A stretch of 52,942 nucleotides of DNA, taken from positions 1 to 52,942 of IMG/VR virus record IMGVR_UViG_3300048080_000352; one strand, given 5' to 3'. This stretch comes from a virus (lineage: Duplodnaviria; Caudoviricetes). The notes below the pieces were generated by a model. The model was given only the letters and a program-made list of their open reading frames with translations, did not search any database and had not been told where the DNA came from. Of this stretch, positions 4,534-51,600 are shown piece by piece (the first letter of the stretch is position 1; each line of letters opens with the position of its first letter). The position numbers and the translations under genes are program-made.

Positions 4534-5358
4534 ATGTCATCCCTTGTCACCTTCCCCGGGCGGTTCGGCGATTTGATTTGGGCCCTGCCGACTGTGCGGG
4601 CGATCAGCGAGACCTTTGAAGAGCCGGTTGCGCTGCAGCTCAGCGTGGGCCTCGACTCGATCACGCCGCTGCTACAGCGGCAGCCCTACATCGACTCGAT
4701 CCTCGTCGACACGGGCTGGCTGACACAGGACACCGCGCCAATCACGCCGCGCACGCCACCAGTGACGGCTGAGGGGTACGATCGGGTGTTCCATCTCGGC
4801 TACGACGGCTGGCCGGGCGCGCCCCTCCCGATCGATATCTATCGACGTGCCGCGGCGCAGGAGGCGCTGCAGGCGATCGATCTCGACCGGCCGTGGATCG
4901 GCGCGCCCTATCACCTGCCGCCGATGGACGTAGCGGTCGGCTTCACCGATGAGCACTTCGAGCTGAAGTACGGCCTCTGCTGGCTGCTGCAAAACCGGTT
5001 CGGCCGCAGCCACAAGATCGCGAACCTCTCGACCTCGCCGCGCTGGCTGCAGGAGGGCAAACAGCTCGGCATGGATTGGCTGAGCGCCGCCGCGTGGCTC
5101 TCGACGACGCAGGTATTCCTCGGCTGCTGCTCGGCGCTGCATGTGCTCGCCTGCGCGGTCGGCTGCCCGGTGATCCTCATGGAGCCGGCAGAGGCACGCT
5201 GGGCGGACGTGTTCTACCCCTACGGAAAGGCGGGGCCGCAGGTCACGCTGGTGCTCGGCAACGACGGGCGGCCAACCTGGGACGCGCGGCATCTCGCCGA
5301 GGCGATCGAGCGGGTCCGTCGCGTACCGACGGCTGAGGCCCAGGTCTCCGCGCGATGA
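4534..5358 (+). CDS. Glycosyltransferase family 9-like (heptosyltransferase-like, GT-B)
   Basis: GRFGDLIWALPTVRAI and FLGCCSALHVLACAVGCPVI match GT9 N- and C-terminal motifs; AGGAGG RBS. Confidence 0.78.
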   Translation: MSSLVTFPGRFGDLIWALPTVRAISETFEEPVALQLSVGLDSITPLLQRQPYIDSILVDTGWLTQDTAPITPRTPPVTAEGYDRVFHLGYDGWPGAPLPIDIYRRAAAQEALQAIDLDRPWIGAPYHLPPMDVAVGFTDEHFELKYGLCWLLQNRFGRSHKIANLSTSPRWLQEGKQLGMDWLSAAAWLSTTQVFLGCCSALHVLACAVGCPVILMEPAEARWADVFYPYGKAGPQVTLVLGNDGRPTWDARHLAEAIERVRRVPTAEAQVSAR

Positions 5359-5651
5359 AACTCGTAAACTACGGCGTCGGCGAGATCAGCGACCGCCTCA
5401 CGATCCTGGCGCTGAAGACTGAACTCGCGCAGCTGTTCGAGGATCAGGACCGCGGCGTGCTCACGCTCAGCACGATCCATAAGGCGAAGGGCCGGGAGTG
5501 GCCGACGGTCGCGATCCTGCAGCCCGAGCTGATGCCGAGCGGCTGGGCGACCAAGGACTGGGAGCAGCAGCAGGAGACCAACCTGAAGTATGTCGCGATC
5601 ACGCGGGCGCGCGAGCGGCTGATCTGGCTGGACGGGAAGCTGGAGGAGTAG
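5355..5651 (+). CDS. Chimera: DUF6165-like N-terminus fused to a UvrD/Rep helicase C-terminal fragment
   Basis: First 21 aa mirror the start of 5789..6172; remainder has TLSTIHKAKGREW and YVAITRAR (SF1A motifs V/VI). Confidence 0.8.
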   Translation: MKLVNYGVGEISDRLTILALKTELAQLFEDQDRGVLTLSTIHKAKGREWPTVAILQPELMPSGWATKDWEQQQETNLKYVAITRARERLIWLDGKLEE

Positions 5652-5792
5652 ATGGACAAGGCACCGAAAGCCATCACCGTGTGCAATCTCGAAGTCGTCG
5701 TTATGCCGAACGGCGAAGTGATCTGCTCCGGCAAGACGCTCGGGTGGATCAAGACATTGGGGCCGTACCTGACTCCGAGGGCTGCTGTATGA
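5652..5792 (+). CDS. Small hypothetical protein (46 aa)
   Basis: MDKAPKAITVCNLEVVVMPNGEVICSGK...; GGAGG RBS; ATGA overlap with next gene. Confidence 0.6.
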   Translation: MDKAPKAITVCNLEVVVMPNGEVICSGKTLGWIKTLGPYLTPRAAV

Positions 5793-6172
5793 GGCTGATC
5801 AACTTCGGCGCCGGCGAAGTCTGCGATCGGTTGACGATCCTCGCGCTGAAGATCCTGCATGGGACTGTGCGGGGCCGAGACGTCGCGCACTGGCAGAAAG
5901 AGCAAGTCGTGCTGCTGACCAAGATCGCCGCGCGCAATGGGAGCTGGTTCGGGCACTACACCGAGCTGGCGGCGGTGAACGCGTCGATCTGGCAAGGGGA
6001 GGACGAGCTACGCAGCCATCGCGTTGGCAGCGGCGGCCAGCCCCCAACAGAGGTCTGGCCGACGCTCGTCCAACTGGGATTCCGCATACAGGAGCTGAAC
6101 GATCAACGCGCGGCGCTGATCGAGGCGATCAACAAGGAAGCCGGCGACCACTTGGGATCGGAGAAGTTATGA
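5789..6172 (+). CDS. DUF6165-like helical protein
   Basis: GEVCDRLTILALK, NASIWQGEDELR, LNDQRAALIEAIN, GSEK resemble DUF6165, a family often found beside GT9 genes. Confidence 0.65.
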   Translation: MRLINFGAGEVCDRLTILALKILHGTVRGRDVAHWQKEQVVLLTKIAARNGSWFGHYTELAAVNASIWQGEDELRSHRVGSGGQPPTEVWPTLVQLGFRIQELNDQRAALIEAINKEAGDHLGSEKL

Positions 6173-6366
6173 GGGAGGACATTCTCCTCATCGGATCAGA
6201 AGAGGTCATGCGTGGAGGCCACGCCATGCAGGACGCAGCGCGGCAAATGGCGAACGTGTCCAGCAACATCCAATTGGTACTCGAAGCCCACCAGCGATTC
6301 CTCGATGATTGGCTGCTGCGCTATGAGCAAGTACTGGAGACGGATCGCGCGGAGCGTGCGCGGTGA
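6169..6366 (+). CDS. Hypothetical protein
   Basis: 65 aa, translationally coupled on both sides. Confidence 0.6.
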   Translation: MREDILLIGSEEVMRGGHAMQDAARQMANVSSNIQLVLEAHQRFLDDWLLRYEQVLETDRAERAR

Positions 6367-6854
6367 ACGTCCTCCTCGTCACGACATGGGACACCGCATG
6401 CGGGATCGCGGAGGCGGACCTGCCGCGGATCGAGCGCGACATCGTCGTCGATCCGATCATGGGCTGTTGGCTCTGGGTAGGGCCAGTGCAGCCTCGCACC
6501 GGGTACGGCGTGTACTATTCGCTCGATTGCCGAATCTTCCGCGCGCACCGGCTGATCTACCAGCTCCTGAAGGGGCCGATCACAGCGCCGTCGCTTGACC
6601 ACGGCGACTGCCCGAAGCTCTGTGTCAATCCTGAGCATCTAGATCCTGTGACGGTACGAGAGAACACCCTACGGGGGAATGGACCATCGGCGATCAATGC
6701 CCGCAAGACGCACTGCCACCACGGCCATCCACTCTCAGGCGACAACCTGAAGACGAAGCAAGGTCCACACGGGCTGATGCGTATCTGTCGAATCTGCTGG
6801 CGTACGTACCATCGCGAGCGTGAGCGACGGCTGCGAAGGGAGCGTGCGGCATGA
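6363..6854 (+). CDS. HNH homing endonuclease with a captured glycosyltransferase N-terminus
   Basis: GCWLW, RAHRLIY, LDH..CVNPEHL..VT..EN..RG, KTHCxHGH, CRIC; first 17 aa mirror the downstream GT. Confidence 0.9.
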   Translation: MNVLLVTTWDTACGIAEADLPRIERDIVVDPIMGCWLWVGPVQPRTGYGVYYSLDCRIFRAHRLIYQLLKGPITAPSLDHGDCPKLCVNPEHLDPVTVRENTLRGNGPSAINARKTHCHHGHPLSGDNLKTKQGPHGLMRICRICWRTYHRERERRLRRERAA

Positions 6855-7813
6855 GCCTCAAAGTACTGTTGGTCACCACATGGAATGCTGCCTGCGGTAT
6901 TAGCGAGCATAGCGCGTACCTCAAGGAGGCGGTCGAGGCGGCTGACCCGGAGATCGATCTCATCCCCGATCCGACTGCGCTGGATCCGGCAGTGTTCGGC
7001 CACGCTGGCCTGCCGGCGATCTGTCACCTCAATTACCAGGCGGCGCTCCATAGCCGCTGGCAACCCGAGACGATCCGCCGCGTACAGCAGCTCGGCGTGA
7101 AGGTGATCGTGACCTGGCACGATAGCGGCGCCCCGAACTCTGATCTCTGCAAAGCGATCGTCGACGCCGCCGACGCCGCCGTCGTGCATGAGCCGTTCGA
7201 TGACCTCCCCCTGGAGGAGGTGCGGTACTGGCGGATGGGCGTGCCCGACTGGCCCGGCGGCTGGTATCACGACCACGGCCGCTCCTCGTGGTGTGGCGAT
7301 CGGCCGATCCTCGGCACGGTGGGCTTCCCCTTCCCGTGGAAGAACTACGACGAGCTGGCGCGGGTGACAGCGGCCTGCGGCTGGGCCCTGCTGCTGATCG
7401 CCCCGACGGCCACCGCCGCCGACGTCGCGCGCTGGGCGGCGATCAATCCGCACCTCTATGTCGAGACGAGCTTTCTCCCTCGCGACACAGTCATCAGCCA
7501 GCTCGCCGCCTGCGACGCAACGGCCTTCCTCTACACCTGCGCGAACACCGGGCAGTCTGGCGCAATCTGCCAAGGGATTGCAGCGCGCAAGCCCGTGATC
7601 GCGTTCAGCCCCTCGATCTGTCGGCAGTTCCGCTGCTATGAACATGAGCCGGCGATTCGCTGGTGCAGCAGTGAGGCGCAGGTCAGAGTCGCCTTACGGA
7701 CCCTGCCCATCCAGCGCTGCGATCCTGGCATTGTTGAGCTAGCCCATCGTGACAGCTGGGCGCAGCTCGGGCGGAAGTACGCGGCGCTGTACCACAACGT
7801 GGGAGGCGGCTGA
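6851..7813 (+). CDS. Glycosyltransferase family 4-like (GT-B)
   Basis: KVLLVTTW..CGISEHS, GTVGFPFPWKNYD, SGAICQGIAARKPVI, SWAQLGRKYAALY. Confidence 0.82.
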   Translation: MSLKVLLVTTWNAACGISEHSAYLKEAVEAADPEIDLIPDPTALDPAVFGHAGLPAICHLNYQAALHSRWQPETIRRVQQLGVKVIVTWHDSGAPNSDLCKAIVDAADAAVVHEPFDDLPLEEVRYWRMGVPDWPGGWYHDHGRSSWCGDRPILGTVGFPFPWKNYDELARVTAACGWALLLIAPTATAADVARWAAINPHLYVETSFLPRDTVISQLAACDATAFLYTCANTGQSGAICQGIAARKPVIAFSPSICRQFRCYEHEPAIRWCSSEAQVRVALRTLPIQRCDPGIVELAHRDSWAQLGRKYAALYHNVGGG

Positions 7814-7844
7814 TGGCGGAGTTAGTCCGACAGGTGAGGGGGCG

Positions 7845-8504
7845 ATGACGCTGCCACTGAGCTACCCCTTGTCAAAGACCTTAGATCCAGAATCCGATTA
7901 TGTTGAACTCGCAGAGGAGTTGAAGATCGTCGATCGGCACTTCCACTCAGCGCGCGAGCAACATCCGCATCGCCGATTCGAGTACGCGCTGGCGCTGCGG
8001 GCGCTCCGTACGCTCGGCCGTGAGCCCCGCCGCATCGTCTATGACGTCGGCGGGGCTGGCAGTCCGTTCCATTTCATGCTCAATCCGCTGCCAGCACGGA
8101 TTGAGATCATCGACCCCGACAAGCCGCCGCACTGGACACTGGAGCAGTATTGCCGAGCGGGCGCCGAACTCAGCGACGCCGTCTTCTGCCTCTCCGTCCT
8201 GGAGCACGTCGATGATCTCGATCGCTTCCTCTACCATTTGAGCTGCCTCGTCGCGCCTGGGGGGCTGTTGTTCCTGACGATGGACTGCTGCAACAGCCTG
8301 GGCCAGTACGGTACTCCGGAGGACACGTACCATTTCCATTGGATGCGGAAGCGCATCTTCAACGCGTACAGCTTGGGAGATCTAGTCGCCGCTCCACTGC
8401 TCCAGCGTGACTTCACGCACCTCGGTTCGATCGATCTGACGTGGCACGGGCCGCAGGTGTACGACTACAGCTTTTGTTCGCTCGCGCTGGTGAAGCGATC
8501 GTGA
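7845..8504 (+). CDS. Class I SAM-dependent methyltransferase
   Basis: YDVGGAGS, FCLSVLEHVDD, VAPGGLLFLTMD. Confidence 0.85.
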   Translation: MTLPLSYPLSKTLDPESDYVELAEELKIVDRHFHSAREQHPHRRFEYALALRALRTLGREPRRIVYDVGGAGSPFHFMLNPLPARIEIIDPDKPPHWTLEQYCRAGAELSDAVFCLSVLEHVDDLDRFLYHLSCLVAPGGLLFLTMDCCNSLGQYGTPEDTYHFHWMRKRIFNAYSLGDLVAAPLLQRDFTHLGSIDLTWHGPQVYDYSFCSLALVKRS

Positions 8505-8556
8505 TCGCGCGCGTCGCATGGTGGTCGTCGTCCGCGCGCGCGTATGACAGACTGTT

Positions 8557-9135
8557 ATGGAGTCGGTGCCGATGATGGCGCTCACCCGCACCTGCGATCT
8601 CGCCGACTTCCCAGACGGCCACACGGTCGCCGACTGGCAGCAGGCGCTTGCGCAGGAGGCGTACGGCCGCCTGCCGGATCCGGTGGCCGGCACGATCCTC
8701 TGCATCAACTGGGGAGGCTGCGCCTTCACTGCGCCGGGGGCCGACCCGGTCTATCGCCTGAAGCACACCGGGGGAGGCCCGCGCGCCACCGACACCCTAG
8801 CCGCCGTCTTCGCGCTCTCGGTGCTCGATCGTCTCAACACAGAAGGTGGGCGCGGTGGTCCGCTCGGCTTCCTCCACACCCATGCCCTGCGCGTGCTGCC
8901 GGGCGGCCTGTTTTTCTGCACGTTCGCGTACTGGGATGCCGAAGGGCCCGACTGCGCGACCGGGCACGAGCGGCGCCGGCGGATCTACGACCGGCACTCC
9001 TGGCTGAAGCTCGTGAGCGAAGTCAAGGCGTACGGGCTGCGGCCCCTCGGCGAGGTCGACTGGACCTACCACGGGCACACACTCGGGGATCACACCCTAG
9101 CGTCCCTCGTCCTCACCAAAGGAGACCGCCCATGA
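8557..9135 (+). CDS. Diverged methyltransferase-like paralog
   Basis: FALSVLDRL, LPGGLFFCTF, RRIY, DWTYHG and SLVLTK parallel the 7845 gene; glycine motif degenerate. Confidence 0.65.
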   Translation: MESVPMMALTRTCDLADFPDGHTVADWQQALAQEAYGRLPDPVAGTILCINWGGCAFTAPGADPVYRLKHTGGGPRATDTLAAVFALSVLDRLNTEGGRGGPLGFLHTHALRVLPGGLFFCTFAYWDAEGPDCATGHERRRRIYDRHSWLKLVSEVKAYGLRPLGEVDWTYHGHTLGDHTLASLVLTKGDRP

Positions 9136-10391
9136 TCGACTACTTGGCGCGCGACTGTCGGCTCTGTGGCGGTCGCCTCGACTCGGTGCTGCATCTCGGC
9201 AATCTGAGTCTGTCGGACTTTCCGCCAGCCGACGCTCAGCCCGAGCCGCGGGTGCCGCTCGACCTCTGTGCCTGCCACGTCTGTGGCACCGTGCAACTCC
9301 GGCACACCGTCCCGCCCGACATCCTATTCCGACAGTACTGGTACCGCTCGGGCATCAACGAGATCATGCGGGCCGAACTCGCCGACGTGGTGACGCAGGC
9401 GCTGGCGCAGGTCGGCCGGCTGACGCAGCACGATCGGGTGGTCGACGTCGGGGCGAACGACGGGACGCTCCTCGCTGCCTATCGCACGCAGCCGAGGGCC
9501 CGGGACATCACCCGGATTGCGTTCGAGCCCGCGACAAACCTCCAGGAGATCCTGCACCCACAGACGGAGGTGCTGATCGCGGACTACTTTCCGGCGGGCC
9601 TGCAGCAGGTGGGTGGCGCGGCTGGGCGTGTGAAGATCCTCACCTCGATCGCCTGCTTCTATGCGGTGGACGCCCCCGACGCCTTTGTTGAGGCCGTCGC
9701 CGATCTGCTGCACCCAGAGGGGATCTGGATCGTGCAGTTCCAGGATCTCGACCAGATGATCAAGGCGACGGCATTCGACAACATCACCTTCGAGCATCTC
9801 GTCTACTACTCGCTCGCAAGTTTCGAGCAGTTGCTGGTGCCGCACGGGCTGAAGATCATCGATGCGGTCAGCCGCGCGATCAACGGCGGGAGCTACCGCC
9901 TCACGGTCGCCCGTGGGGCGCACAAGCCCGCGACCGGCCGCGTTGACACCCTCCGCGCGCGCGAAGCCGGCTGTCAGTCCTGGGAGACCCTCGAGCGGTT
10001 CGCCTGGCGCGTCGGGCAGGTCCGCGAGCAGATCACCGCCACCGTCGGCAGCCTGCGCGAGCAGGGCCGAACAATCGATTTGTATGCGGCGAGTACGAAG
10101 GCGAACACCACGCTGCAATATTGTGGGCTCGGCCCGGACGCGATTCGGCAGGCGTGGGAGCGCTCGCCGGAGAAGGTCGGGCGGCAGACGGTCACCGGGA
10201 TCCCGATTGTGAGTGAGGAGACTGGGCGGGCGGATCCCCCGGATGCGCTGCTGCTCGGCGCGTGGCAGTTCAAGGACGCGTTCGTGCAGCGGGAGGCGGA
10301 CTACCTGCGGCGCGGCGGCTCGATGATCGTGCCGCTGCCGGCGGTGGAGATCGTCACGGGGAACGGGAAGGTTGGGAGGGTGCCGGCGTGA
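9132..10391 (+). CDS. NDP-hexose C-methyltransferase (TylCIII/NovU-like)
   Basis: CRLCG...CHVC zinc motif, YWYRSG, DVGANDGTLL, FDNITFEHLVYYS, NGGS, YAASTKANT, LLGAWQF, IVPLP. Confidence 0.9.
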   Translation: MIDYLARDCRLCGGRLDSVLHLGNLSLSDFPPADAQPEPRVPLDLCACHVCGTVQLRHTVPPDILFRQYWYRSGINEIMRAELADVVTQALAQVGRLTQHDRVVDVGANDGTLLAAYRTQPRARDITRIAFEPATNLQEILHPQTEVLIADYFPAGLQQVGGAAGRVKILTSIACFYAVDAPDAFVEAVADLLHPEGIWIVQFQDLDQMIKATAFDNITFEHLVYYSLASFEQLLVPHGLKIIDAVSRAINGGSYRLTVARGAHKPATGRVDTLRAREAGCQSWETLERFAWRVGQVREQITATVGSLREQGRTIDLYAASTKANTTLQYCGLGPDAIRQAWERSPEKVGRQTVTGIPIVSEETGRADPPDALLLGAWQFKDAFVQREADYLRRGGSMIVPLPAVEIVTGNGKVGRVPA

Positions 10392-10540
10392 TGGTGCGGA
10401 ACGCGGTGATCCTCATCTTCCTGATCATGGCGGCGGGGCTCGTCGGGGCAGGGCTCGCGCCGTTCGGCGTGCCGCGGGCGCTGGTGTACGGGCTGGGGCT
10501 GTACCTGGTGGCGTACGTGTACGCGCGGGTGACACGGTAA
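10391..10540 (+). CDS. Small membrane protein (two hydrophobic segments)
   Basis: MVRNAVILIFLIMAAGLVGAG...LVYGLGLYLVAYVY. Confidence 0.65.
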   Translation: MVRNAVILIFLIMAAGLVGAGLAPFGVPRALVYGLGLYLVAYVYARVTR

Positions 10541-13343: not shown

Positions 13344-13348
13344 CCTAG

Positions 13349-22166: not shown

Positions 22167-22866
22167 GGGTGCCCGCCTCAGCCACCAGCACCGGGAGTGG
22201 GACCTCGTTCCCCGCCACTTGGAGCTGGATCGTATTGTCGTCGAAGGAGACGAAGATATCATAGACGCGGAGCACCGCATCCACTTCGATCGCGAGCTTG
22301 TCGCGGCTGAGGAGCCCCGAGGGATTCCGCTGCTTGCCCACCGTGAAGCCCGCCTGGAGCAGATGCCAGATGATCCGCATCAGGAGTTCCTCGGCATTCA
22401 CCAGGCGGGCGTCGACGGTTGCGGTCGGGTTGCGCAGCGCAATGAACTCGTTGCTCACTCCGCCGAGGATCTGGCCCCCACGCACCGCCGTGAGGAGGCC
22501 GCCAGAGTCGTGGCCGGTTGGCAACCCAGCATCGATGCCCTCTTGGAACTTTCCCTTATCGCCCCCACCAGGAAGTCCTCCGGCTCCAGCGCCGCCGGCC
22601 GTGTCAGCCGCTGCCTGACTCGCGGCCGCCTGTGCGAGGGCGGCGGTGGCGTGACGCGTCGCGGTGGTGATGTTCGTCTCGTTGGTATTGTGGCCGCTGA
22701 CCAGTGAGGTGATCGTCGCTTGGGCGGCGGTGAGCTGCTCTTGCAACGCGAAGATCCGTTCCCAGAGAAGTCGCGTGGACTGCTGCGCGTTGAAATCCGC
22801 AATCTGGTCGACGTGCGGATGCTGGCGTGTGAGGGGAACGACGGCCGTCGAGGTGACTGGGCTCAT
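22156..22866 (-). CDS. Virion protein, coiled-coil N-terminus
   Basis: 236 aa, ATGA-coupled to the tail gene. Confidence 0.55.
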   Translation of the reverse strand: MSPVTSTAVVPLTRQHPHVDQIADFNAQQSTRLLWERIFALQEQLTAAQATITSLVSGHNTNETNITTATRHATAALAQAAASQAAADTAGGAGAGGLPGGGDKGKFQEGIDAGLPTGHDSGGLLTAVRGGQILGGVSNEFIALRNPTATVDARLVNAEELLMRIIWHLLQAGFTVGKQRNPSGLLSRDKLAIEVDAVLRVYDIFVSFDDNTIQLQVAGNEVPLPVLVAEAGTPDS

Positions 22867-40641: not shown

Positions 40642-40707
40642 CGGAGACGGTGGTCCGACCCTTCGCCCCCGCGAGCGGTCGGACACGTCAGTACGGACGA
40701 TCTGAAC

Positions 40708-43055: not shown

Positions 43056-43061
43056 GAGCGG

Positions 43062-43798: not shown

Positions 43799-44374
43799 CT
43801 AACCCCGCCAGAAGAGTTCGCCCTTGATCCGTTCAACCACCGCCTGCAACTCCGCCGTCACCGTCCGCCCGCGCTTCGTCGCGCGCTGGGCGATCTCCTC
43901 GAGCTGCCCCGGCGTGAACGCGACGTCCACGGTGCCGATGCGGATGCGCGCGAGCCGCTCGATCGCGGCGACCAGGCTCGCGGGCGTCTTGGTCGTGCCG
44001 ATCCCGGCCATGCGCTCGATCTGCAGGCAGATCGCCGGCGGCACGCTCAGCTGCCCGTCGATGACGATGTCGTACCGCTCGTCGATCGTATGGCCGCGCG
44101 CCCAGTCGACGATCGCCTGGCCGCGCGTGATCAGCCAGTCACCGGCCTGGACGCCGACGCTGCGGCCGTCGACGAGATCGACGGTGTGCGCGTGGGTGGA
44201 CCGGATCGCGATGAGGGTCGGCGCGCGGCGGCGGACGGCGAGCTTGGTCGCCTGCGTCCAGGCGGAGGGAGCCGACGCCGCAGGCTGAGCAGGCTGAGGT
44301 TCAGATCCGGTTGCGATCTTCAAAGTGGAGCCCCCCGGCCCCGCCGGAGGCAAGGTCGTCTGCGAACTCATCAT
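43799..44374 (-). CDS. Hypothetical protein
   Basis: GGAGGAGG RBS; overlaps the TerL 3' end. Confidence 0.6.
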   Translation of the reverse strand: MMSSQTTLPPAGPGGSTLKIATGSEPQPAQPAASAPSAWTQATKLAVRRRAPTLIAIRSTHAHTVDLVDGRSVGVQAGDWLITRGQAIVDWARGHTIDERYDIVIDGQLSVPPAICLQIERMAGIGTTKTPASLVAAIERLARIRIGTVDVAFTPGQLEEIAQRATKRGRTVTAELQAVVERIKGELFWRG

Positions 44375-47300
44375 CCTCCTCCATCTGGTGATCGGCCTCC
44401 GCGCTGGTGACGGCGCGGTTGCGCCAGTCGCCCTTGGGGGCCCCGGCGTGCTCGGCGATCGCCTGCTGCGCGGCCCGCCGTCGCCGCCGCTCGGCAATCG
44501 GTTCGGCCTCGCCGCCGGCCAGGCGCCACGCCACGTAGTAGCCGATCGCGCCGGCCATCACCCCGTCGTCGTGCTGCCCGCGGGCGGCCTCGGCCTCCCC
44601 GATGGTGCCTTCGGTCACGAAGTGGCGCAACTCCCCCCGGGTGATCGGCGAGTTCAGCACGAAGTCCGGCAGCCCGGTCACCGGATCGAAGGTCGTGATC
44701 GCCGCGTGGAAGCTCGAGATAAGGAGCGGGCGCGTGCGCGGCGTGGTCACCCAGCCGATTTTCGTGCTGTAGCGGCGGTCGGGCGAGGCCGAGTCGGCGT
44801 ACTCCCAGACATAGAAGTGCGAGTAGCCGAGGTGCAGCTGCAGCGTGTCCTGCGTGGCGAGCCCGTGACTGTTGGTCTCGATCGCCGCCAGCGCTTCGAC
44901 CAGGTCGCCGTCGTCGTAGAAGCGGCCGACCGCATCGCAGACGAAGGCGAGCGCCTGGGTGTCGATCCGGTTGCTGACGTACTGGGCGACCTGCTCGGCC
45001 GGCTCGTCGATCGTCGGGAGGCGAATGAGGTCGACAATCGAGTAGTCCTGCCCGAGGCCGTCGCCGACGTCGACCGCCATCACGTAGCGGAACGAGCCCC
45101 GGACGCGCGGGTACTCCCAGATCGCTAGCACCGAGTGCCGCAGGCTGGGCAGCTCGCTCAGCGTCGCTTGGGTGAGTCGGCGGAAGCCGTAGCCGGGTGG
45201 GACCGGATAGGTTTCGTGCGCGGTCTGCGCGGCGACGGAGATGAGTCGAGGCGACAGCGGCGGCTCCGGACGTCGGGGCGCCGGCAGCGCCAGAGGCGCG
45301 TCGCGTTCGCTAGCCTCCGGAGGCAGTCGGCGAAGCTCCGCGATCTCACGCGCCGGTTCGACAGCCCACACGTCGAGCAGGGGACGGCGGCTGCCGGCCC
45401 GGTCGATCGCGTCGAGCTGCTCGAACGTGAAGATCGCCCGGCCGGCGTACTGAAAGCATTCCTGATCATCGGCCGGGTACTCCTTCAGGAACTTGTGCAG
45501 CTCGCCCTTCTTCGTGTAGTAGGCGCGGGTGCGCTCGTACCAGTAGAGCTGATCGCGGGTGAGGGGGATGGTGCGGCCCCTCCACTTCGAGGAGTCGTGC
45601 TCCGCTTTCTGGGCGTGCTGGGTGGTCGTCGTCGCGGGCGTCCAGTCGACCGGGGCCGGCAGGGAGTACTTGGCCGGCTCGGCGTACCACGGGATGAAGA
45701 CGTTCACGAAGCGCCCGTCGCCCTCGGCCGCCGTGAGCCATTGTGTGTGCCACCAGTCGCCGGCGTGCTCGGCGGTCGACTCGAGGATCGCGAGGGTCTG
45801 CACTGAAATCGGCACCGCGGGGAAGAGCGCCGTATCGAGCTGCTCGGGGTTGTCCCAGGTGGCGAGCTCCGAGATATGTAGGACCGAATACGTTTGCCCG
45901 CGCCCGATCGCGCCCTTCGATCCCTCCATGCCCGTGACCGATTGCAGCGCGCCGCGGGTCGACTTGCCCCAGGCGACCTTCAAATAGCTGGCATTGGCGA
46001 GGGATAGCTCACGATTTTTGTTGAAGTACAACTTGCCCGGCTTCAGGAACCACGGCAGCTGATCGTAGATCCGCGTCACCATCCGAAAGAGGTAGCCGGC
46101 CTGATCCTCGACGTCGGCACCGGAGAGCGCCCGCACGTGCGGCCGGCTGACGATGCGGTGGGCGACGAGCGATTCGGCGAGGGTGGAGATCCCGAGCTGA
46201 CGCGCCTTCAAAATATTCAGCAGCAGGCCGTCGGGATCGCCGGTCGTGTGCCGGCGCCATTCGAGATCGCCGAGGACGTTCAGGGTGAGGGTTTGTGATT
46301 CCCAGAGCGGGTAGAGCGGGCGGAGGCCGTGCCCCTCCTGATCGATCCAGCAATTCTTTGAAGCGTAGCCCCAGGCGACGTAGTTACCCGTCGTCGTCTG
46401 CAGAGACACAACTGTTGCCTCACCCGCAGGCAGGACGGCAACGACGCGATCAGGTGTACCAAAGGCTGCCGAGAAGATATACGGGAGCAACGAGATCTTC
46501 GTCGGGCGGGCGACGGCTTGAAACCGCGCATAGCCTTCCCGCCCACCAACCAGATAGAACCCATCGTCGTCCTGGGTGAATGGAATGTCGAAATGCTTCA
46601 GCGCACGCGCGATCTGATCACAGATTTCTGGATTGGCCGTGCGGGACTGGCCAATCTTGAGATGGCTTCCTTCACCATCGAAGATCCCACCCAACCACCC
46701 CCCAAGCCTAAGATCCTCTTCGGAGGTTAGGGAAGCGAACAGTCGCGGACTGATCACATGGCACAACTGCCGTCCGACCTTCGCCTGGGTCCAAGGATAG
46801 AAGTACTGCTTTCGAGCGCCACCCTTCTTCGTCCACGATCCCCCGCGATTGCCGTAGCCTCGCCGCCACAGATGATCAGGGGTGCAACGCAGCTCGCGTC
46901 CCGATTCCAGCACGACACGGACGACCTGAGTACGACGCTCAGCTTTTGCCAACACCTGACTCTGCGTCAGTGTGTCACGGAGACGATGGGCACCCTTCCG
47001 ATCATGCCGATTCGCGTTTCGGCTGAGCGCCGCACCGCCCAAGCGATCCCACCCCACCACAAGATCGCCCACCGCCACGTCCGCGATCGGCCGCATCGTC
47101 ATGTCGGCCATCCAGATCGGCGCCTCCTCCGTGTTGCAGAAGCGCTCGGCGAAGTACGGATAGTCGAACACCACCCGGAGGCGCGTGGCGGCGATGAAGG
47201 TCTGTTCTTCTTCGGTGAGCCGGCGCGTCAGCGTCCCATGCTCGTCCATCGCCGCCATGCACTGCGCGGTGAGGCCGGCGGAGTCGGCGACGCGGTAGAC

Positions 47301-47387
47301 GGGGACGCCGGTTGGGAAGAGCGATCGCATCGCCGGCGACGTCAGCAGCTGCGCCTCCCGCAGCGCGATCATCTTGTCGCTATACAT
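44301..47387 (-). CDS. terL: Terminase large subunit with an intein
   Basis: Walker A LKARQLGIST, Walker B LHISE, EST, nuclease VDVGDG..DYS, IETN, HDDGVMA. Confidence 0.95.
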   Translation of the reverse strand: MYSDKMIALREAQLLTSPAMRSLFPTGVPVYRVADSAGLTAQCMAAMDEHGTLTRRLTEEEQTFIAATRLRVVFDYPYFAERFCNTEEAPIWMADMTMRPIADVAVGDLVVGWDRLGGAALSRNANRHDRKGAHRLRDTLTQSQVLAKAERRTQVVRVVLESGRELRCTPDHLWRRGYGNRGGSWTKKGGARKQYFYPWTQAKVGRQLCHVISPRLFASLTSEEDLRLGGWLGGIFDGEGSHLKIGQSRTANPEICDQIARALKHFDIPFTQDDDGFYLVGGREGYARFQAVARPTKISLLPYIFSAAFGTPDRVVAVLPAGEATVVSLQTTTGNYVAWGYASKNCWIDQEGHGLRPLYPLWESQTLTLNVLGDLEWRRHTTGDPDGLLLNILKARQLGISTLAESLVAHRIVSRPHVRALSGADVEDQAGYLFRMVTRIYDQLPWFLKPGKLYFNKNRELSLANASYLKVAWGKSTRGALQSVTGMEGSKGAIGRGQTYSVLHISELATWDNPEQLDTALFPAVPISVQTLAILESTAEHAGDWWHTQWLTAAEGDGRFVNVFIPWYAEPAKYSLPAPVDWTPATTTTQHAQKAEHDSSKWRGRTIPLTRDQLYWYERTRAYYTKKGELHKFLKEYPADDQECFQYAGRAIFTFEQLDAIDRAGSRRPLLDVWAVEPAREIAELRRLPPEASERDAPLALPAPRRPEPPLSPRLISVAAQTAHETYPVPPGYGFRRLTQATLSELPSLRHSVLAIWEYPRVRGSFRYVMAVDVGDGLGQDYSIVDLIRLPTIDEPAEQVAQYVSNRIDTQALAFVCDAVGRFYDDGDLVEALAAIETNSHGLATQDTLQLHLGYSHFYVWEYADSASPDRRYSTKIGWVTTPRTRPLLISSFHAAITTFDPVTGLPDFVLNSPITRGELRHFVTEGTIGEAEAARGQHDDGVMAGAIGYYVAWRLAGGEAEPIAERRRRRAAQQAIAEHAGAPKGDWRNRAVTSAEADHQMEEDDEFADDLASGGAGGLHFEDRNRI
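46353..47138 (-). mobile_element. Intein with LAGLIDADG endonuclease in TerL
   Basis: Starts CNTEEAPIWMAD, block B CTPDHLW, WLGGIFDGEGS, ends NYVAWGYASKN followed by Cys; removal restores FAERF-CWID. Confidence 0.92.
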
Positions 47388-47599
47388 AGGATCGCAGCAC
47401 CCAGGACGCGAGGCCCGCACCGAGCGCACTGAAGAAGCCTTTGAGGATCGCCCGCCGGCAGCCGTCGCACCAGCGCCAGTTGGGGGTGTCGCTGCCGCAG
47501 TTCGTGCAATATCGCATGAGGGTCACCGCCGCACGCCACGCACGCACGCGACGTACAGTACGAGTACTGATCCGTACGATCAGGGTGCAGGACGTTCAC
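47369..47599 (-). CDS. Small Cys-rich hypothetical protein
   Basis: CVAC and CARC motifs. Confidence 0.5.
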   Translation of the reverse strand: MNVLHPDRTDQYSYCTSRACVACGGDPHAILHELRQRHPQLALVRRLPAGDPQRLLQCARCGPRVLGAAILCIATR

Positions 47600-47967: not shown

Positions 47968-47969
47968 GC

Positions 47970-48257: not shown

Positions 48258-48272
48258 GTGTCTCCCTTCCTT

Positions 48273-48493: not shown

Positions 48494-48664
48494 CGTTACC
48501 CTCCGATCAGCCAGCGCAGGCCCAGGAGCGCGAGCGTCGTGAGGACCTGCGCGGCAAACGTCTTGCGCCCCATCCGCCAGCAGTCTCCGCAGTATCTGAA
48601 CTCGAAGCGAGCCAAGTACCTGAATTCGAAGTGAGCGGCGAGCTCCAGTCACCGCGCGGTCCCC

Positions 48665-48856
48665 TTACTCATCGCACCGGGTCGCCGCTTCTGACGCGGG
48701 AGGATTCCACGCGTAGGTGTCGATCGGATATCCGACGACGCTCACGCGTCGGCACTGAGGCCGCTCCCCATACCAGGACAGCCCTGCGATGAGTGCCACG
48801 GCGACGGCGACGGCGATGAGACACGCGCCGATCTGTTGCGTCATCGCGTGAGCCAT
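48665..48856 (-). CDS. Small membrane protein
   Basis: IGACLIAVAVAVALIAGLSW. Confidence 0.5.
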   Translation of the reverse strand: MAHAMTQQIGACLIAVAVAVALIAGLSWYGERPQCRRVSVVGYPIDTYAWNPPASEAATRCDE

Positions 48857-48941
48857 CTGTTCAGTCGCCACACCCCAAGCGTGTAAATGTCCTTTACGAC
48901 GCACGCTACCGACTGTACGTACAAGCTGACCAAACAGGGTT

Positions 48942-50513
48942 TCATCGGCTCCTCCCAATCACGACGGCCGACAGCGTCGGCGGCATGATCCACGTTTCGC
49001 CGGCGTCGAGGTCGTGCGCCTCACGTAACGTACCGGTCAGCGGATCGTAGACATCGACGTGCATGGAGGACCGCGCTTCAAACGGAATCGGCACATCCGC
49101 GAGGATCGGCATCATCACGAAGCGGCCGTCTCCGTCGATCGCGGCGAAGGCCCGCAGGAGCTGGCCACCCTCGACTAAGGGGACGAGCCTGTCCGTATTG
49201 AACGGATGCCGAATGCCGGCCTGCCGGTTGTTGTTCTGAAAATTCCAATTCGGCAGATCGGCTGGCAACAATTTCCGCACGGCGTTGAGCCCCGCAAGGA
49301 TCTCAGCGATGTGCGGCACTTCCCAGATGTTTGCCGATCGGCCACGCGCGAGGTCCGCAACTCCGCCCCCGCGGATGCCGGCGCCGGTGTGCAACACGTA
49401 GCTCGCGCCATTACAGAGCCACGTGTAGGCCGCCGCCATCGTGAGCCTCAGCGGGTCATTGTCCGCCGCAACAGAGGACTGCGGGCCAATCGGTTCATTG
49501 CTCGCCCACGCGCCGCCCCAGAAGAGGTTCGGGTCGCGCGCCTGGCGCACGTGCCGCCAGCCGCGGTCGCCAAAGGAGCGATCGACGTGAACCATCGCGA
49601 GGTTCGCACGCGAGCCTCGGTACCAATCCCGGAAGTTCAGCTCTGGTCCACTGCCGAGATCGACCACATCGACCGCCGTCGTCGACACGATGTTCGGGGT
49701 CAGATCGCGGAGCAGGTCAGCCAGCCGCTTGATCTCGGCGTAGTTGTCGCCCCAGCCGGTGCCCCAGGCCTCATTCGCGACTTCGAGGACAACCACCTTC
49801 TCCGGCCGCGCCGCGACGATACCGGCGACACGCCGGACCAACGCCTCGCGCGCCGCAGCCGTCGGCGTCTTGTCCAGCCCGCCGAAGATCGTGACCTGCG
49901 TCCGCAGGCCGTAGGTGTCGTACGCGAGGTCGATCTGGCCGGCCAAGCTCTCCGCCCAGGCCGGGTCGGTCGGGTCGCTTGTCCGGTCCTCCCAGGCCCC
50001 GGACGGGCCAACCGCCGCGAGGACACGGATGTAGTCCACCTTACCCGCAAGGTACGCGAGATTCGCCTCCAGCCGCACGAGGTTGTGCTGGTATCCCCAC
50101 GGTGCCCAGAAGAGCGACGTCCCCAGGCCGAGGAACGGCCCGTCGTCGTCTACGAGCGTTCGGCCCTCACGCCGCACCAGGCCACGCCGGGCGACGGGCT
50201 GCGCCACGACGCGCTCCAGCGTGACCGCGTCCAGCTCCGTGTCGCCGGCGGGCAGCACGAGCCGCGACTCCTGAGGGACGTAGTCCTGCGCGCCGCTCAG
50301 ATAGAGCGTGGCCCCGCCCGTGACTGCGCCTGGCACGAAGAAGGACAGATGCCGATCGGTGCGCTCGGCGCCCAGCGGCGCGCTCAGGTCGGGCACGATC
50401 ACCGCCTCGATCTGCTCGGGAGGCGGCCCGTAGACGGTCAGCCCTACCCGGCGGCTCGGCGGCGGCCCCGGCGGCTGCGTGCGTTGGCGAATCAGATCCC
50501 AGACGATGCTCAT
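48942..50513 (-). CDS. Glycoside hydrolase-like protein (clan GH-A TIM barrel)
   Basis: DYIRV, LEVANE (putative acid/base), H.DR, SNEPIG (putative nucleophile), C-terminal beta domain. Confidence 0.65.
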   Translation of the reverse strand: MSIVWDLIRQRTQPPGPPPSRRVGLTVYGPPPEQIEAVIVPDLSAPLGAERTDRHLSFFVPGAVTGGATLYLSGAQDYVPQESRLVLPAGDTELDAVTLERVVAQPVARRGLVRREGRTLVDDDGPFLGLGTSLFWAPWGYQHNLVRLEANLAYLAGKVDYIRVLAAVGPSGAWEDRTSDPTDPAWAESLAGQIDLAYDTYGLRTQVTIFGGLDKTPTAAAREALVRRVAGIVAARPEKVVVLEVANEAWGTGWGDNYAEIKRLADLLRDLTPNIVSTTAVDVVDLGSGPELNFRDWYRGSRANLAMVHVDRSFGDRGWRHVRQARDPNLFWGGAWASNEPIGPQSSVAADNDPLRLTMAAAYTWLCNGASYVLHTGAGIRGGGVADLARGRSANIWEVPHIAEILAGLNAVRKLLPADLPNWNFQNNNRQAGIRHPFNTDRLVPLVEGGQLLRAFAAIDGDGRFVMMPILADVPIPFEARSSMHVDVYDPLTGTLREAHDLDAGETWIMPPTLSAVVIGRSR

Positions 50514-50634
50514 GTTCTCGGCCTCTTCTGACGCGCGTCGATCCGAGATCGTGGCGTCCGGGTCGGCTCCCCAGCCTCATCCTCTGCGCCTTTGACAGCG
50601 TGTGAATGAACCGACCGACCCGGACGCCAGCTCG

Positions 50635-50814
50635 TCATCGCCCCACCCTCGCCTTCAGTGTGCGTGTCCTTCTCTGACGCATCACCAGCCCGTGTGCCCG
50701 CGCCACGAGCTGCGCCGCCGCCGCCGGCGCCCCGGCCCACATCAGCAGCGTCCGCGCATCGCGCAGCAGATACCGGGCGGCCCGGAGCGCGGCGGTGCGG
50801 GTCGGCTGCTTCAC
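50635..50814 (-). CDS. Small basic hypothetical protein
   Basis: MKQPTRTAALRAARYLL...; GTGA and ATGA coupling. Confidence 0.4.
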   Translation of the reverse strand: MKQPTRTAALRAARYLLRDARTLLMWAGAPAAAAQLVARAHGLVMRQRRTRTLKARVGR

Positions 50815-51248
50815 CGCGGATCTCCAACGGAGTCCTCCACGCGCAGTTCAAAATGGCCCATCACCACTCCAACAGGTCGCGTGCGCCCGTGTTCATTGTT
50901 TTCGTAGCGCTTGATCCAGTTGTAGTTGGCACACAGCAGTTGGTACTTGCCCTCGCTGTTTGCGGCGACCTTCCGGTAGTACTGCTTGCTGCTATTCGAC
51001 CTGTAGCGTGTTTCGCTATTGGCATCCCCTCGCACATGATCGAACTGCAAGGCACGAGCATCTGAGAATCCGCAGCGCACGCACCGGCCGCCCAACGCCG
51101 CGATTGCATCGCGCCTGGCGTGCTCTCGACGTTCCCTGCAAGCTCTCGCCGCACGTTCAGGATTGGTTTTCACCCAGGCCCTCGCTCGACTGATGTATTC
51201 CTGTCTGTGCCGCCTGTAGTGTTGCGCTTGACACGGTGTCTGAGACAT
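50811..51248 (-). CDS. HNH-type endonuclease carrying the displaced endolysin C-terminus
   Basis: LGGRCVRCG..D.RALQFDHV.G, YQLLCANYNWIK; ends MGHFELRVEDSVGDPR. Confidence 0.85.
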   Translation of the reverse strand: MSQTPCQAQHYRRHRQEYISRARAWVKTNPERAARACRERREHARRDAIAALGGRCVRCGFSDARALQFDHVRGDANSETRYRSNSSKQYYRKVAANSEGKYQLLCANYNWIKRYENNEHGRTRPVGVVMGHFELRVEDSVGDPR

Positions 51249-51600
51249 ATTCGAAATGCCCTAAATCAGGAATCGTCCAGCGCCCGCCCCAGCGCAGGCC
51301 GAGCGCTTCGCCGATCGCGCCGATCTTCGGCCAGAGCGGATGGGCAGCCGCCCACGCCAGCTTGTCGCCCCCAGGCGCAGCGGTGTACAGCTCGTAGGGG
51401 ACGAGGTCGATCGCGAGGCCGTCGAGATGTGTGCTGCGCGCGACCCAGCTCGTGCCGGCGGCGAGGTTGATCGCATGCTCGGCGGGCGTGCGGAGGGTGT
51501 CGACGATCAGCACCGCGACTCGCGCCTCGACGCAACGCGCGAGCAGGGCGATCGCGAGTGGCTTGAAGCGTGGGTCGAGATCGTCTAACGCGCGTGACAT
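51157..51600 (-). CDS. Endolysin, peptidase M15 family (L-Ala-D-Glu peptidase-like)
   Basis: TLRT...H, S.HL.GLAIDL, GLRWGGRW, DLGHFE. Confidence 0.9.
   Translation of the reverse strand: MSRALDDLDPRFKPLAIALLARCVEARVAVLIVDTLRTPAEHAINLAAGTSWVARSTHLDGLAIDLVPYELYTAAPGGDKLAWAAAHPLWPKIGAIGEALGLRWGGRWTIPDLGHFEYVSDTVSSATLQAAQTGIHQSSEGLGENQS

What the first reader, a model, noticed from the sequence alone, without database searches (positions are those of the whole stretch)
5355..51290. Recurrent 'capture-and-replace' insertions that swap gene ends (three cases)
Three inserts land inside a gene near its end. Each fuses its own ORF in frame to the orphaned original end and carries a diverged copy of that end, so the host gene stays whole. 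The cases are an HNH at 6363 (GT start), an HNH at 50811 (endolysin end) and a UvrD fragment at 5355 (DUF6165-like start). The duplicated peptides are seen directly. The inference is a splicing-free mode of homing: a recoded gene end both repairs the target gene and makes it resistant to cleavage. Together with the two inteins, the genome would host two parallel strategies for harmless invasion of coding sequence.
Basis: partly seen in the sequence, partly recalled or inferred. Interest (0 to 1): 0.85.

Follow-up and report, generated by a model that had tools for sequence, protein, structure and literature searches.

The report
Gene-end duplications left by phage insertions
In this phage genome three foreign DNA pieces, two of them homing-endonuclease genes, sit just inside the ends of genes, and each brought a spare copy of that gene end, so the gene still works without any splicing; this arrangement is known from fungal mitochondria, and I found no phage report of it.

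Summary
All three duplications are real. The window is a whole 52.9-kb viral record.

Case B, HNH at 6363, is the strongest. Its first 17 codons are a stub of the neighbouring glycosyltransferase (GT) gene, 16/17 identical to insert-free alleles in relatives. The working GT start at 6851 is 43/44 nt identical to the GT start of a different lineage (L034). Four other metagenomic HNH proteins (50-81% identical) carry the same GT stub at the same or nearly the same junction, so this architecture is heritable or recurrent.

Case A, the UvrD fragment at 5355, holds no endonuclease. It is a scar of illegitimate recombination, probably at a CTGAAG microhomology. The event imported "helicase end, orf46, DUF start" from an L032/L034-like phage.

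Case C, HNH at 50811, rests on a duplicated GHFE zinc-site motif. It is a singleton. Its HNH has lost a conserved cysteine, and which copy is resident cannot be decided.

No intron or intein signal lies in any insert.

It matches the fungal mitochondrial "mobile ORF plus foreign gene end" hybrids and one-sided homing in T4. The "recoding" is simply a diverged natural allele. Cleavage immunity is untested.

The parts
4474..5358 (+). geneA, the upstream neighbour of case A. It is conserved next to the DUF gene in relatives. Its TGA overlaps the orphan ATG (ATGA).
   Evidence: Homologues in L002, L008, L009, L032, L033 and L035.
5355..5417 (+). Orphaned start of the DUF4254-like gene: 21 codons, MKLVNYGVGEISDRLTILALK.
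   Evidence: E 5.6e-8 to the working start. 19/21 identical to the L002 DUF start.
5418..5651 (+). The last 77 codons of a UvrD-type SF1 helicase, fused in frame to the orphan. The junction lies at ...GCG CTG AAG|ACT.
   Evidence: Pfam UvrD_C 1.6e-13. phrog_1967 1.9e-22. 44% identical to the C-terminus of the helicase of Dinoroseobacter phage R5C. 76% identical to the helicase ends of L032 and L034. L034 has GAG CTG AAG in register with the junction.
5652..5792 (+). orf46, a small ORF that came in with the helicase end. Its ATG abuts the helicase stop and its TGA overlaps the DUF ATG.
   Evidence: No family and no relatives found.
5789..6172 (+). Working DUF4254-like gene, 127 aa and full length compared with relatives.
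   Evidence: Alignment with 4 relatives. Codons 31-60 are 0.76-0.87 nt identical to L032/L034 against 0.49-0.67 for L009 and L002.
6169..6366 (+). orf65, the upstream neighbour of case B. Its TGA overlaps the orphan GTG (GTGA).
6363..6413 (+). Orphaned start of the GT gene: 17 codons, (M)NVLLVTTWDTACGIAE.
   Evidence: E 3.6e-6 to the working start. 16/17 aa and 46/51 nt to L009. By eye, 17/17 with P0211.
6414..6854 (+). Body of HNH_3 endonuclease 'HNH1', translated from the orphan's start. Its TGA overlaps the working GT ATG.
   Evidence: Homologues align only from residue 34 onward. The clade with the GT stub is P0003-P0007.
6851..7813 (+). Working GT-B/GT4-like glycosyltransferase, 320 aa. 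About the first 40 codons (6851 to about 6970) are L034-like.
   Evidence: Fold result. nt identity to L034 is 0.97 over columns 1-15 and about 0.8 to codon 40, then falls to background. Identity starts at the ATG. GC3 is 0.50-0.67 in the first 16 codons, then 0.83-0.92.
51157..51600 (-). Peptidase_M15_4 endolysin. The domain ends at GHFEY (GHFE = 51250-51261). A 29-codon tail then runs over the HNH2 start.
   Evidence: Pfam 8.4e-12. Six relatives end 2-14 residues after GHFE.
50862..51248 (-). Body of HNH endonuclease 'HNH2'. Its ATG lies inside the endolysin codons ...GAA TAT GTC.
   Evidence: phrog_2255 2.1e-11. It reads CANYN where 17 of 17 locus homologues have C.NC. Of 10 database homologues, 9 have C and 1 has H.
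50811..50861 (-). Second copy of the endolysin end, MGHFELRVEDSVGDPR*, fused in frame to HNH2. Its TGA overlaps the GTG of orf59.
   Evidence: HNH2 homology stops at residue 131 at the latest. None of the 27 homologues read has this tail.
50635..50814 (-). orf59, the downstream neighbour of case C (GTGA overlap).
   Evidence: No relatives found.

Best explanation
The three sites are junction scars of foreign DNA that entered by recombination with homology on one side only.

In each case a break lay in the most conserved motif of a gene:
- the beta1-loop motif TTW..CGI.EH of a GT4-like glycosyltransferase;
- the motif GE.SDRLTILALK of a DUF4254-like gene;
- the zinc-site motif GHFE of an M15 endolysin.

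The end facing the gene body was repaired from a diverged co-infecting phage. It copied that phage's version of the gene end plus whatever lay beyond it: an HNH gene in two cases, and the 3' end of a helicase gene plus a small ORF in the third.

The result is a resident stub that is still coupled by a 4-nt start/stop overlap to its old neighbour and is fused in frame to the incoming ORF. A complete gene follows, whose end is the donor's allele.

For the GT site the composite (stub, HNH, donor-type start) has become a stable element that probably homes. The HNH has no start of its own and is translated from the GT's original start, and the GT is translationally coupled to the HNH stop (ATGA).

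Shown: the duplications, the insert-free alleles, the foreign origin of the working GT start, the donor-type gene order, and the recurrence of the GT::HNH fusion.

Inferred: that an endonuclease made the breaks, that the fusions are translated, and that the element still homes.
For: - Duplications are significant.
- Every stub keeps a 4-nt overlap with its old neighbour, and every imported piece keeps donor-type overlaps.
- Insert-free relatives: 0 of 9 loci with sequence upstream of GT hold the stub or HNH1 there. 0 of 9 DUF loci hold a second DUF start. 0 of 6 endolysin relatives hold HNH2.
- The orphan GT start is 16/17 identical to L009 and L035. The working start is 43/44 nt identical to L034 beginning at the ATG, stays at about 0.8 to codon 40, then drops to background.
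- Donor-type order exists. L032 reads geneA, full UvrD helicase, DUF. L034 reads helicase, DUF, GT. Their helicase ends are 76% identical to the window's fragment. L034 has GAG CTG AAG in register with the junction GCG CTG AAG.
- GT::HNH fusions P0004 (81%), P0005 (72%), P0006 (63%) and P0007 (50%) come from other metagenomes. Three share the junction CGIAE|AD(L/V)PRIERDI, and P0007 has CGIA|PEQ. Stub similarity is decoupled from body similarity: P0007 stub 12/13 against body 51%; P0006 stub 6/17 against body 62%.
- The same DUF-GT gap holds a different NUMOD4-HNH_3 gene in L008 and L032.
- A second study's run holds two 151-nt contigs, 97-99% identical, that cover only HNH1 and the first 19 nt of GT (depth 2, so weak).
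- One-sided homing with junctions at microhomology is described for the T4 td intron (passage in PMC2988022).
Against: - No cleavage or homing data exist, and no donor genome is in hand.
- Case A has no endonuclease.
- Case C is unique among 27 HNH2 homologues read, and its HNH has Tyr in place of a conserved Cys.
- The AT-rich codons of the working GHFEY end are partly shared by relative L004. Composition therefore does not show that this copy was imported.
- In a survey of 88 HNH_3 ORFs from other viral and genome contigs, only the window showed N-terminal capture: score 69, next best 38, and control maximum 39 from 1304 mismatched pairs. The mode is therefore rare.
- Relatives are only about 50-63% identical, so the length of the tracts imported in cases A and C cannot be set.
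- The contigs that encode P0004-P0007 could not be read.
- Run X1, which reproduces 4389-8600 with no differences, is probably the source sample.
Confidence: 0.65

Rival explanations
1. Ordinary phage mosaicism. All three are chance illegitimate-recombination scars. The HNH genes are passive cargo that made no break and do not home, and the in-frame fusions are luck or weak selection.
For: Case A shows exactly such a scar without any endonuclease, at a likely 6-7-nt microhomology. Case C is a singleton with a possibly dead HNH. Capture is absent in 87 of 88 other HNH_3 ORFs.
Against: The same GT-stub::HNH junction is present in 3 further proteins, and a near-identical site in a fourth. All three junctions fall in the most conserved motif of their gene. 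A second HNH family occupies the same DUF-GT gap in L008 and L032. All three fusions are in frame, which has a chance of 1/27 without selection.
Confidence: 0.2
2. The GT-like N-terminus is a genuine, selected part of this HNH clade, for instance for expression or targeting. It was inherited from a single ancient fusion rather than captured repeatedly.
For: P0003-P0005 share junction and linker. Their stub identity (82% and 65%) tracks their body identity (81% and 72%).
Against: The P0007 stub is 12/13 identical while its body is 51% identical and its junction differs. The P0006 stub has decayed to 6/17 at 62% body identity. A lone 17-residue beta-strand-plus-loop of a GT-B fold has no obvious use.
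Confidence: 0.1
3. Local tandem duplication of each gene end, followed by divergence in place and later insertion of the ORFs.
For: The copies are direct repeats about 430-490 nt apart.
Against: The working GT start is 43/44 nt identical to another lineage (L034), while the stub is 46/51 nt identical to L009. 7 of 11 identical, degenerate codons differ synonymously between the two copies (by eye). The helicase fragment is foreign and is not a copy of the window's own helicase at 1278-2750.
Confidence: 0.03
4. The inserts are self-splicing introns or inteins, or the structure is a metagenome assembly chimera.
For: HNH genes often sit in group I introns. The record is a metagenome-assembled viral contig, CheckV 76% complete.
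Against: No Rfam family was found at gathering score in the whole window, and none at E <= 1 in 5200-7000. The only hit in 50500-51700 was a chance snoRNA match. The working genes are complete with their own start or end. No Hint or intein domain lies in the inserts. Junction homologies of 7-12 nt are far shorter than assembly words. Logan's own contig reproduces 4389-8600 at even depth of about 78, although this may be the same sample. The fusion is seen in independent data sets.
Confidence: 0.02

Closest known systems
Mobile endonuclease ORFs (mORFs) that create 'gene hybrids' in fungal mitochondria: Allomyces macrogynus atp6; Glomus atp6, atp9, cox2 and nad3 (passages of PMC3630166; Paquin et al. 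1994 seen only as cited there)
   Same: An endonuclease ORF sits inside a gene near its end. The insert carries a diverged, horizontally acquired copy of that gene end, in phase, which completes the gene. The native end is displaced downstream and kept. The native copy resembles close relatives more than the inserted copy does.
   Different: Those cases are in organelles, use other endonuclease types, and are all at C-termini. Here the host is a phage and the enzymes are HNH. The best case is the mirror image at an N-terminus, where the endonuclease borrows the gene's start codon.
Intronless homing, co-conversion and marker exclusion by free-standing endonucleases of T4 (SegF, SegG, SegB, MobE; passages of PMC2988022)
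   Same: A free-standing endonuclease gene lies next to a conserved target gene. Donor flanks are co-converted into the recipient. The L034-like tract of about 40 codons fits a co-conversion tract.
   Different: T4 elements sit between genes, with homology on both sides, and leave no duplicated gene end or fused stub.
One-sided homing by illegitimate double-strand-break repair of the T4 td intron (Parker et al. 1999; seen only as described in PMC2988022; the paper itself is not held)
   Same: Homology on one side only. The other junction forms at microhomology after resection. This is the process inferred here, with the likely CTGAAG junction of case A.
   Different: That was a laboratory result with an intron. 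Here the products are natural and intron-free, and one of them has spread.
Endonuclease insertions that split phage genes (mobE in Aeh1 nrdA, mobA in T4 gene 60/39; PMC2988022), and the out-of-frame HNH 'ShiLan' insertion in actinophage methylases (abstract of PMC11855218)
   Same: HNH genes live inside phage coding sequence without intron or intein.
   Different: Those solutions use two polypeptides that reassemble, or an insertion that is read through as a loop. Here the gene is kept whole by a spare end.
Integrating phages that carry a replacement 3' end for the gene they insert into (phage 21 and e14 in icd; recalled from memory, no call)
   Same: The mobile DNA supplies a diverged copy of a gene end, and the original end is left as a stub.
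   Different: That is integrase-mediated site-specific recombination into a bacterial chromosome, not endonuclease- or recombination-driven exchange between phages.

Membership tests
HNH_3 homing endonuclease (HNH1, 6363-6854) | Match to the HNH_3 profile above its curated cut-off, with the catalytic motifs kept | tested here: met
   27.0 bits against a cut-off of 24.8. phrog_826 E 4.6e-34. AHRL, LDH, CVNP.HL and RENT are invariant in the clade alignment.
HNH_3 homing endonuclease (HNH1) | Patchy presence at a fixed site among related genomes | tested here: met
   Absent upstream of GT in 9 of 9 relatives with that region. The same junction occurs in P0004 and P0005 and a near-identical one in P0007.
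HNH_3 homing endonuclease (HNH1) | Cuts the insert-free allele and is copied into it | not testable with these tools
The only indirect hint is two 151-nt contigs of HNH1 alone in another study.
HNH endonuclease (HNH2, 50811-51248) | CxxC...CxxC/H zinc knuckle around the HNH motif | tested here: not met
   The first pair, CVRC, is present. The second pair reads CANYN, whereas 17 of 17 locus homologues have C.NC, and of 10 database homologues 9 have C and 1 has H. There is no Pfam hit; the PHROG HNH hits are E 2e-11 to 6e-6.
mORF-type gene hybrid (Allomyces atp6 type) | The insert carries a copy of the gene end that completes the gene, and the native end is retained beside it | tested here: met
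   Cases A and B are clear. In case C only the GHFE motif is duplicated.
mORF-type gene hybrid (Allomyces atp6 type) | The inserted end is of foreign origin and the retained end is of the local type | tested here: inconclusive
   Case B: the working start is 43/44 nt identical to L034, and the stub is the common type (L009, L035, L011, P0211). All relatives are only 50-63% identical overall, so 'local' cannot be proved. Case C is undecided.
Group I / group II intron | Ribozyme core detectable around the ORF | tested here: not met
   Rfam found 0 hits at gathering score in the window and 0 at E <= 1 in 5200-7000. In 50500-51700 the only hit was a snoRNA match at E 0.69.
Intein | An in-frame Hint splicing domain with no stop, inside the host protein | tested here: not met
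   No Hint or intein family in the three insert ORFs. Each insert ends at a stop and the host gene restarts.
GT-B fold, GT4-like glycosyltransferase (6851-7813) | Two Rossmann-like domains that match solved GT4 enzymes | tested here: met
   Model pLDDT 82, pTM 0.84. Foldseek E 5e-11 to GlgM, HepE, MshA, BshA and PimA, TM 0.65-0.68. Sequence profiles found nothing.
UvrD-type SF1 helicase (5355-5651) | Complete helicase with N-terminal ATPase domains | tested here: not met
   Only the last 77 residues are present. Full-length versions are 543 aa in L032 and 804 aa with an intein-like insert in L034.

The most novel reading that the evidence does not exclude
A small clade of phage HNH_3 endonucleases has given up its own start codon and lives inside the 5' end of a glycosyltransferase gene. 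It is translated from the gene's native start through a 16-17-codon stub, and it carries a replacement start for the gene at its 3' end, coupled by ATGA. This would be an intron-free and intein-free way of homing into coding sequence in phages. Stubs would be renewed at each invasion. The divergence of the spare end would protect against both re-cutting and loss by repeat recombination.
Probability: 0.35. Interest if true: 0.75.

Novelty: new variant of a known kind. Interest (0 to 1): 0.6.

Why it matters
Homing endonucleases are thought to enter coding sequence safely only inside introns or inteins, or by splitting genes. A third route is to bring a spare gene end. That route is documented for fungal mitochondria, and I found no report of it for phages in five searches. 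Supplements were closed and subscription journals are mostly absent from the library.

If the GT::HNH element really homes, three things follow:
- It gives a simple natural design for harmless insertion into ORFs.
- It explains some short 'orphan' ORF starts and ends, and odd N-terminal extensions on phage HNH genes.
- It shows directly how endonucleases move gene segments between phages only about 50-60% identical.

It also matters for annotation. The window's HNH2 was called from an internal start (89 of 145 aa). The stubs would normally be read as part of the nuclease.

Tried and rejected
- Close relatives in GenBank phages: DNA searches of both regions gave only 129-152-nt matches or none. 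GT by tblastn gave none.
- Intron and intein readings were rejected.
- The UvrD fragment as a copy of the window's own helicase at 1278-2750 was rejected; similarity is at motif level only, E 0.13.
- orf46 against the small ORF after the R5C helicase: no similarity.
- Is capture a general habit of HNH genes? Among 88 HNH_3 ORFs from viral and genome contigs, only the window stands out. L124 at score 31 is within chance.
- Among 150 best relatives of the 98-aa UvrD fusion, none but the window's own protein covers residues 1-21. The 11 short ones I read lack a DUF-like start.
- None of the HNH2 homologues read (17, 10) has a GHFE tail.
- orf59 has no relatives, so no insert-free endolysin-orf59 junction could be found.
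- GC3 as a marker of import works for case B. It is ambiguous for case C because L004 shares GAT TTA ... CAT TTC ... TAT. It is uninformative for case A.
- Population polymorphism: no contig joins across any insert in X1 or X2. Contigs cannot show absence.
- No RNA holder was listed for the stretch, so expression is unknown.
Alignment-based scans of viral and genome contigs found nothing closer than 52%.
- A short-protein search for GT starts gave 5 partial GTs without context.
- The script used too strict a motif (4 ORFs) and crashed. One search replaced it.

Full report
WHAT THE WINDOW IS. The window is the whole record: 52,942 bases, 66% G+C, one contig. It is an IMG/VR virus record estimated 76% complete. 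It encodes a tyrosine integrase (3186-4313), a PIF1/RecD-like helicase (1278-2750) and a UDG-PolA fusion. It also carries a cluster of sugar-modifying genes (glycosyltransferases and methyltransferases) at about 340-10,400. No tRNA and no Rfam family was found.

THE OBSERVATION, CASES A AND B. All three duplications exist at the stated places. In case A, ORF 5355-5651 starts with MKLVNYGVGEISDRLTILALK. The DUF4254-like gene at 5789 starts with MRLINFGAGEVCDRLTILALK. These share 15/21 aa and 49/66 nt. In case B, ORF 6363-6854 starts (M)NVLLVTTWDTACGIAE, and the ORF at 6851 reads MSLKVLLVTTWNAACGISE. These share 12/17 aa and 33/51 nt. In a six-frame search of the genome each stub finds the partner gene's start at E 5.6e-8 and 3.6e-6, with the next hits at 0.76 and 1.5. 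A blind scan of 18,660 neighbouring ORF-end pairs put the GT pair second, at score 69 against a 99.9th percentile of 36. The first was a simple tandem paralogue in L018.

THE OBSERVATION, CASE C. GHFE occurs twice in six frames against 0.145 expected. One copy ends the M15 domain of the endolysin. The other sits 11 codons before the stop of the HNH ORF, in its frame. The insert ORFs are a UvrD_C fragment, an HNH_3 nuclease and an HNH nuclease. The 'GT' label has no profile support. A model with pLDDT 82 matches GT4 glycosyltransferases at Foldseek E 5e-11. 'DUF6165-like' was not reproduced; the only hit is a sub-threshold DUF4254 match.

WHICH COPY IS OLD. Each stub keeps a 4-nt overlap with its outer neighbour: geneA TGA with ATG 5355, orf65 TGA with GTG 6363, and the HNH2/stub TGA with the GTG of orf59. 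The same overlaps join the uninterrupted genes in relatives, for example DUF-GT in L009, L034 and L036. The imported pieces carry their own native-looking joints: helicase stop abutting the orf46 ATG, orf46 TGA with the DUF ATG, and HNH1 TGA with the GT ATG.

RELATIVES WITHOUT THE INSERTS. Scans of viral and metagenome contigs gave 10 loci with the GT 5' end, 9 with the DUF gene and 6 with the endolysin. All are only about 50-71% identical in protein. None of the 9 loci with sequence upstream of GT has a GT stub or an HNH1-type gene there. None of the 9 DUF loci has a second DUF start. None of the 6 endolysin relatives has HNH2. L009, L035, L011 and the partial protein P0211 begin with the window's stub (16-17 of 17) and run on ...HSAYLKEAVEAAD like the window's GT body.

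THE WORKING GT START IS FOREIGN. From its ATG on, it is 43/44 nt identical to the GT start of L034, by my count on the alignment. Upstream of the ATG the two are unrelated: HNH1 in the window, the DUF gene in L034. Identity in 15-codon windows is 0.97, then about 0.8 to about codon 40, then background. Seven other relatives score 0.44-0.69 at the start. The same 'TTWNAACGIS' type occurs in L037 and a near variant in P0210. GC3 is low (0.33-0.67) from the 3' half of HNH1 through GT codon 16 and 0.83-0.92 after. The imported tract is therefore HNH1 plus roughly the first 40 GT codons. This is longer than the 17-codon duplication, as expected if the homologous side was resected and co-converted.

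THE GT::HNH FUSION IS NOT A ONE-OFF. Of 120 listed homologues of HNH1, the five most similar all begin with a GT-like stub. These are the window's own protein, P0004 (81%), P0005 (72%), P0006 (63%) and P0007 (50%). Three share the junction CGIAE|AD(L/V)PRIERDI. P0007 has CGIA|PEQ with an unrelated linker. In P0006 the stub is half decayed. Stub and body similarity are decoupled: P0007 is 12/13 against 51%, and P0006 is 6/17 against 62%. That fits repeated entry into different GT alleles plus decay better than one ancient fusion, but I could not read the contigs. More distant family members have their own short N-termini. For example, L009 and L010 have 17-19 residues before the CW.W motif, against 34 in the window. 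HNH1 thus lacks only a few of its own first codons.

SUPPORTING CONTEXT FOR CASE B. The DUF-GT gap holds a different NUMOD4-HNH_3 gene in L008 and L032, so the site is a hot spot. A run from another study holds two 151-nt contigs, 97-99% identical, that cover only HNH1 and the first 19 nt of GT. Their depth is 2, so this is weak.

CASE A IS DIFFERENT. There is no nuclease in the insert. The 77 residues after the stub are the very end of a UvrD-type helicase: 44% identical to residues 460-537 of the 545-aa helicase of Dinoroseobacter phage R5C. They are not a copy of the window's own helicase. In L032 a full 543-aa UvrD helicase lies between geneA and DUF. In L034 an 804-aa version with an intein-like insert overlaps the DUF start. 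Their C-termini are 76% identical to the window's fragment, and the window's DUF is closest to theirs in codons 31-60. At the point corresponding to the window's junction (GCG CTG AAG|ACT GAA CTC), L034's helicase reads GAG CTG AAG GAG GCC CTC in the same register. The joint therefore probably formed at a 6-7-nt microhomology. This is inferred, because the true donor is unknown. The fusion is unique: among the 150 best of 5620 relatives, only the window's own protein covers residues 1-21.

CASE C IS THE WEAKEST. The six relatives end 2-14 residues after GHFE(Y/N/F). The window's endolysin is therefore complete through GHFEY, and the second copy (MGHFELRVEDSVGDPR*) has a normal tail length. Composition drops sharply at TIPDLGHFE: GC3 falls from 0.8-1.0 to 0.33 and stays low through HNH2. 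However, L004 shares several of those AT-rich codons, so I cannot say which copy is resident. HNH2 homology ends by residue 131. Its nearest relative (P0124, 60%) ends HGHTVPAGSGTPV with no GHFE. HNH2 has Tyr where 17 of 17 locus homologues have Cys, and where 9 of 10 database homologues have Cys and 1 has His. It looks like a relic.

MECHANISM. The simplest single account is one-sided repair. A break in a conserved motif is repaired from a diverged co-infecting genome on the homologous side. Repair copies the donor's gene end and what lies beyond it, and the other side is sealed at microhomology. [quoted passage not shown] Once formed, the composite has homology on both sides with any insert-free allele and can home normally. 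All three junctions lie in the most conserved stretch of their gene, which is where homing endonucleases typically aim. That point is established knowledge, not tested here. That nucleases made these breaks, that the stub fusions are translated, and that the diverged copy gives immunity are all inferences. The 'recoding' is just an ordinary allele from another lineage. Between the two GT copies, 7 of the 11 shared degenerate codons differ synonymously (by eye).

WHAT IS KNOWN. The architecture is that of the fungal mitochondrial 'mobile ORF' gene hybrids. In those, a foreign C-terminus plus endonuclease is inserted in phase, the native C-terminus is displaced, and the native copy is closer to relatives (Allomyces atp6; Glomus atp6, atp9, cox2 and nad3; passages of PMC3630166). 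For phages the literature I could search describes several other arrangements. These are co-conversion and marker exclusion, gene-splitting insertions, nucleases at recombination boundaries, and an out-of-frame HNH insertion read through as a loop. Five searches found no phage case of an endonuclease with a spare gene end. Supplements were closed and most subscription journals are absent, so this is not proof of absence.

VERDICT. I rate this a new variant of a known kind: an N-terminal, start-codon-borrowing version in phages. Interest 0.6.

Noticed in passing
window 4365-4418 (minus strand), next to integrase 3186-4313: A tRNA-like 3' fragment (...GGTTCGAATCC... on the minus strand), probably the attP core. 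ARAGORN and Rfam call nothing. Many short contigs of two metagenome runs pile up here (depth 557 against about 78 elsewhere).
   Followed up: partly
L034:85-2499: The UvrD-type helicase of this relative is 804 aa against 543 aa in L032. It has an insert of about 260 residues bounded by ...YQC and HNS..., and a weak Intein_splicing hit (E 6e-4, below cut-off). It is probably a helicase intein.
   Followed up: partly
L008:5390-5908 and L032:3645-4022: A different endonuclease (NUMOD4 + HNH_3) sits in the same DUF-GT gap in two relatives, with its stop overlapping the GT start and no stub. This suggests a hot spot invaded independently by two HNH types.
   Followed up: partly
L009:3950-4429 and 4417: An HNH1 homologue lies between orf173 and geneA. 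It starts MRILCT (ATG AGG ATC CTC TGC ACC), and geneA just after it starts VRILVT (GTG CGT ATT CTA GTA ACC). This may be a 4-6-codon version of the same capture. It is too short to prove.
   Followed up: partly
L018:3968 and 4286: An HNH2-family gene and the gene directly downstream both begin with the identical 11 nt ATGCCATTTCC (MPFP). This is a short direct repeat flanking the nuclease gene, as after a microhomology-mediated insertion.
   Followed up: partly
window 14372-14530 (+) and 46872-46955 (-): These are the only intein-like signals in the window: weak Intein_splicing matches (E 1.7e-4 and 3.6e-3, both below the curated cut-off). They lie inside the 1267-aa UDG-PolA ORF and the 1042-aa ORF 44301-47429.
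   Followed up: partly
window 22863-27968 (-): The 1701-aa ORF holds internal repeats. They appear as similar antisense ORF ends at about 23344, 23902, 24457 and 24739. It also has a weak fucose-binding lectin (PA-IIL) match near its C-terminus. It is probably a tail fibre.
   Followed up: no
window 7749-8504 and 8557-9135; L008 about 8224 and 8987: Two adjacent genes share a C-terminal motif (...HGP.VYDY.F.SLAL.K / ...HG..LGDHTLASLV...) in the window and in L008. These are neighbouring paralogues in the sugar-modification cluster, not a capture.
   Followed up: no
window 50811-51248 (-): The public gene call for HNH2 starts at an internal codon (89 of 145 aa), presumably because the true start lies inside the endolysin ORF.
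   Followed up: no
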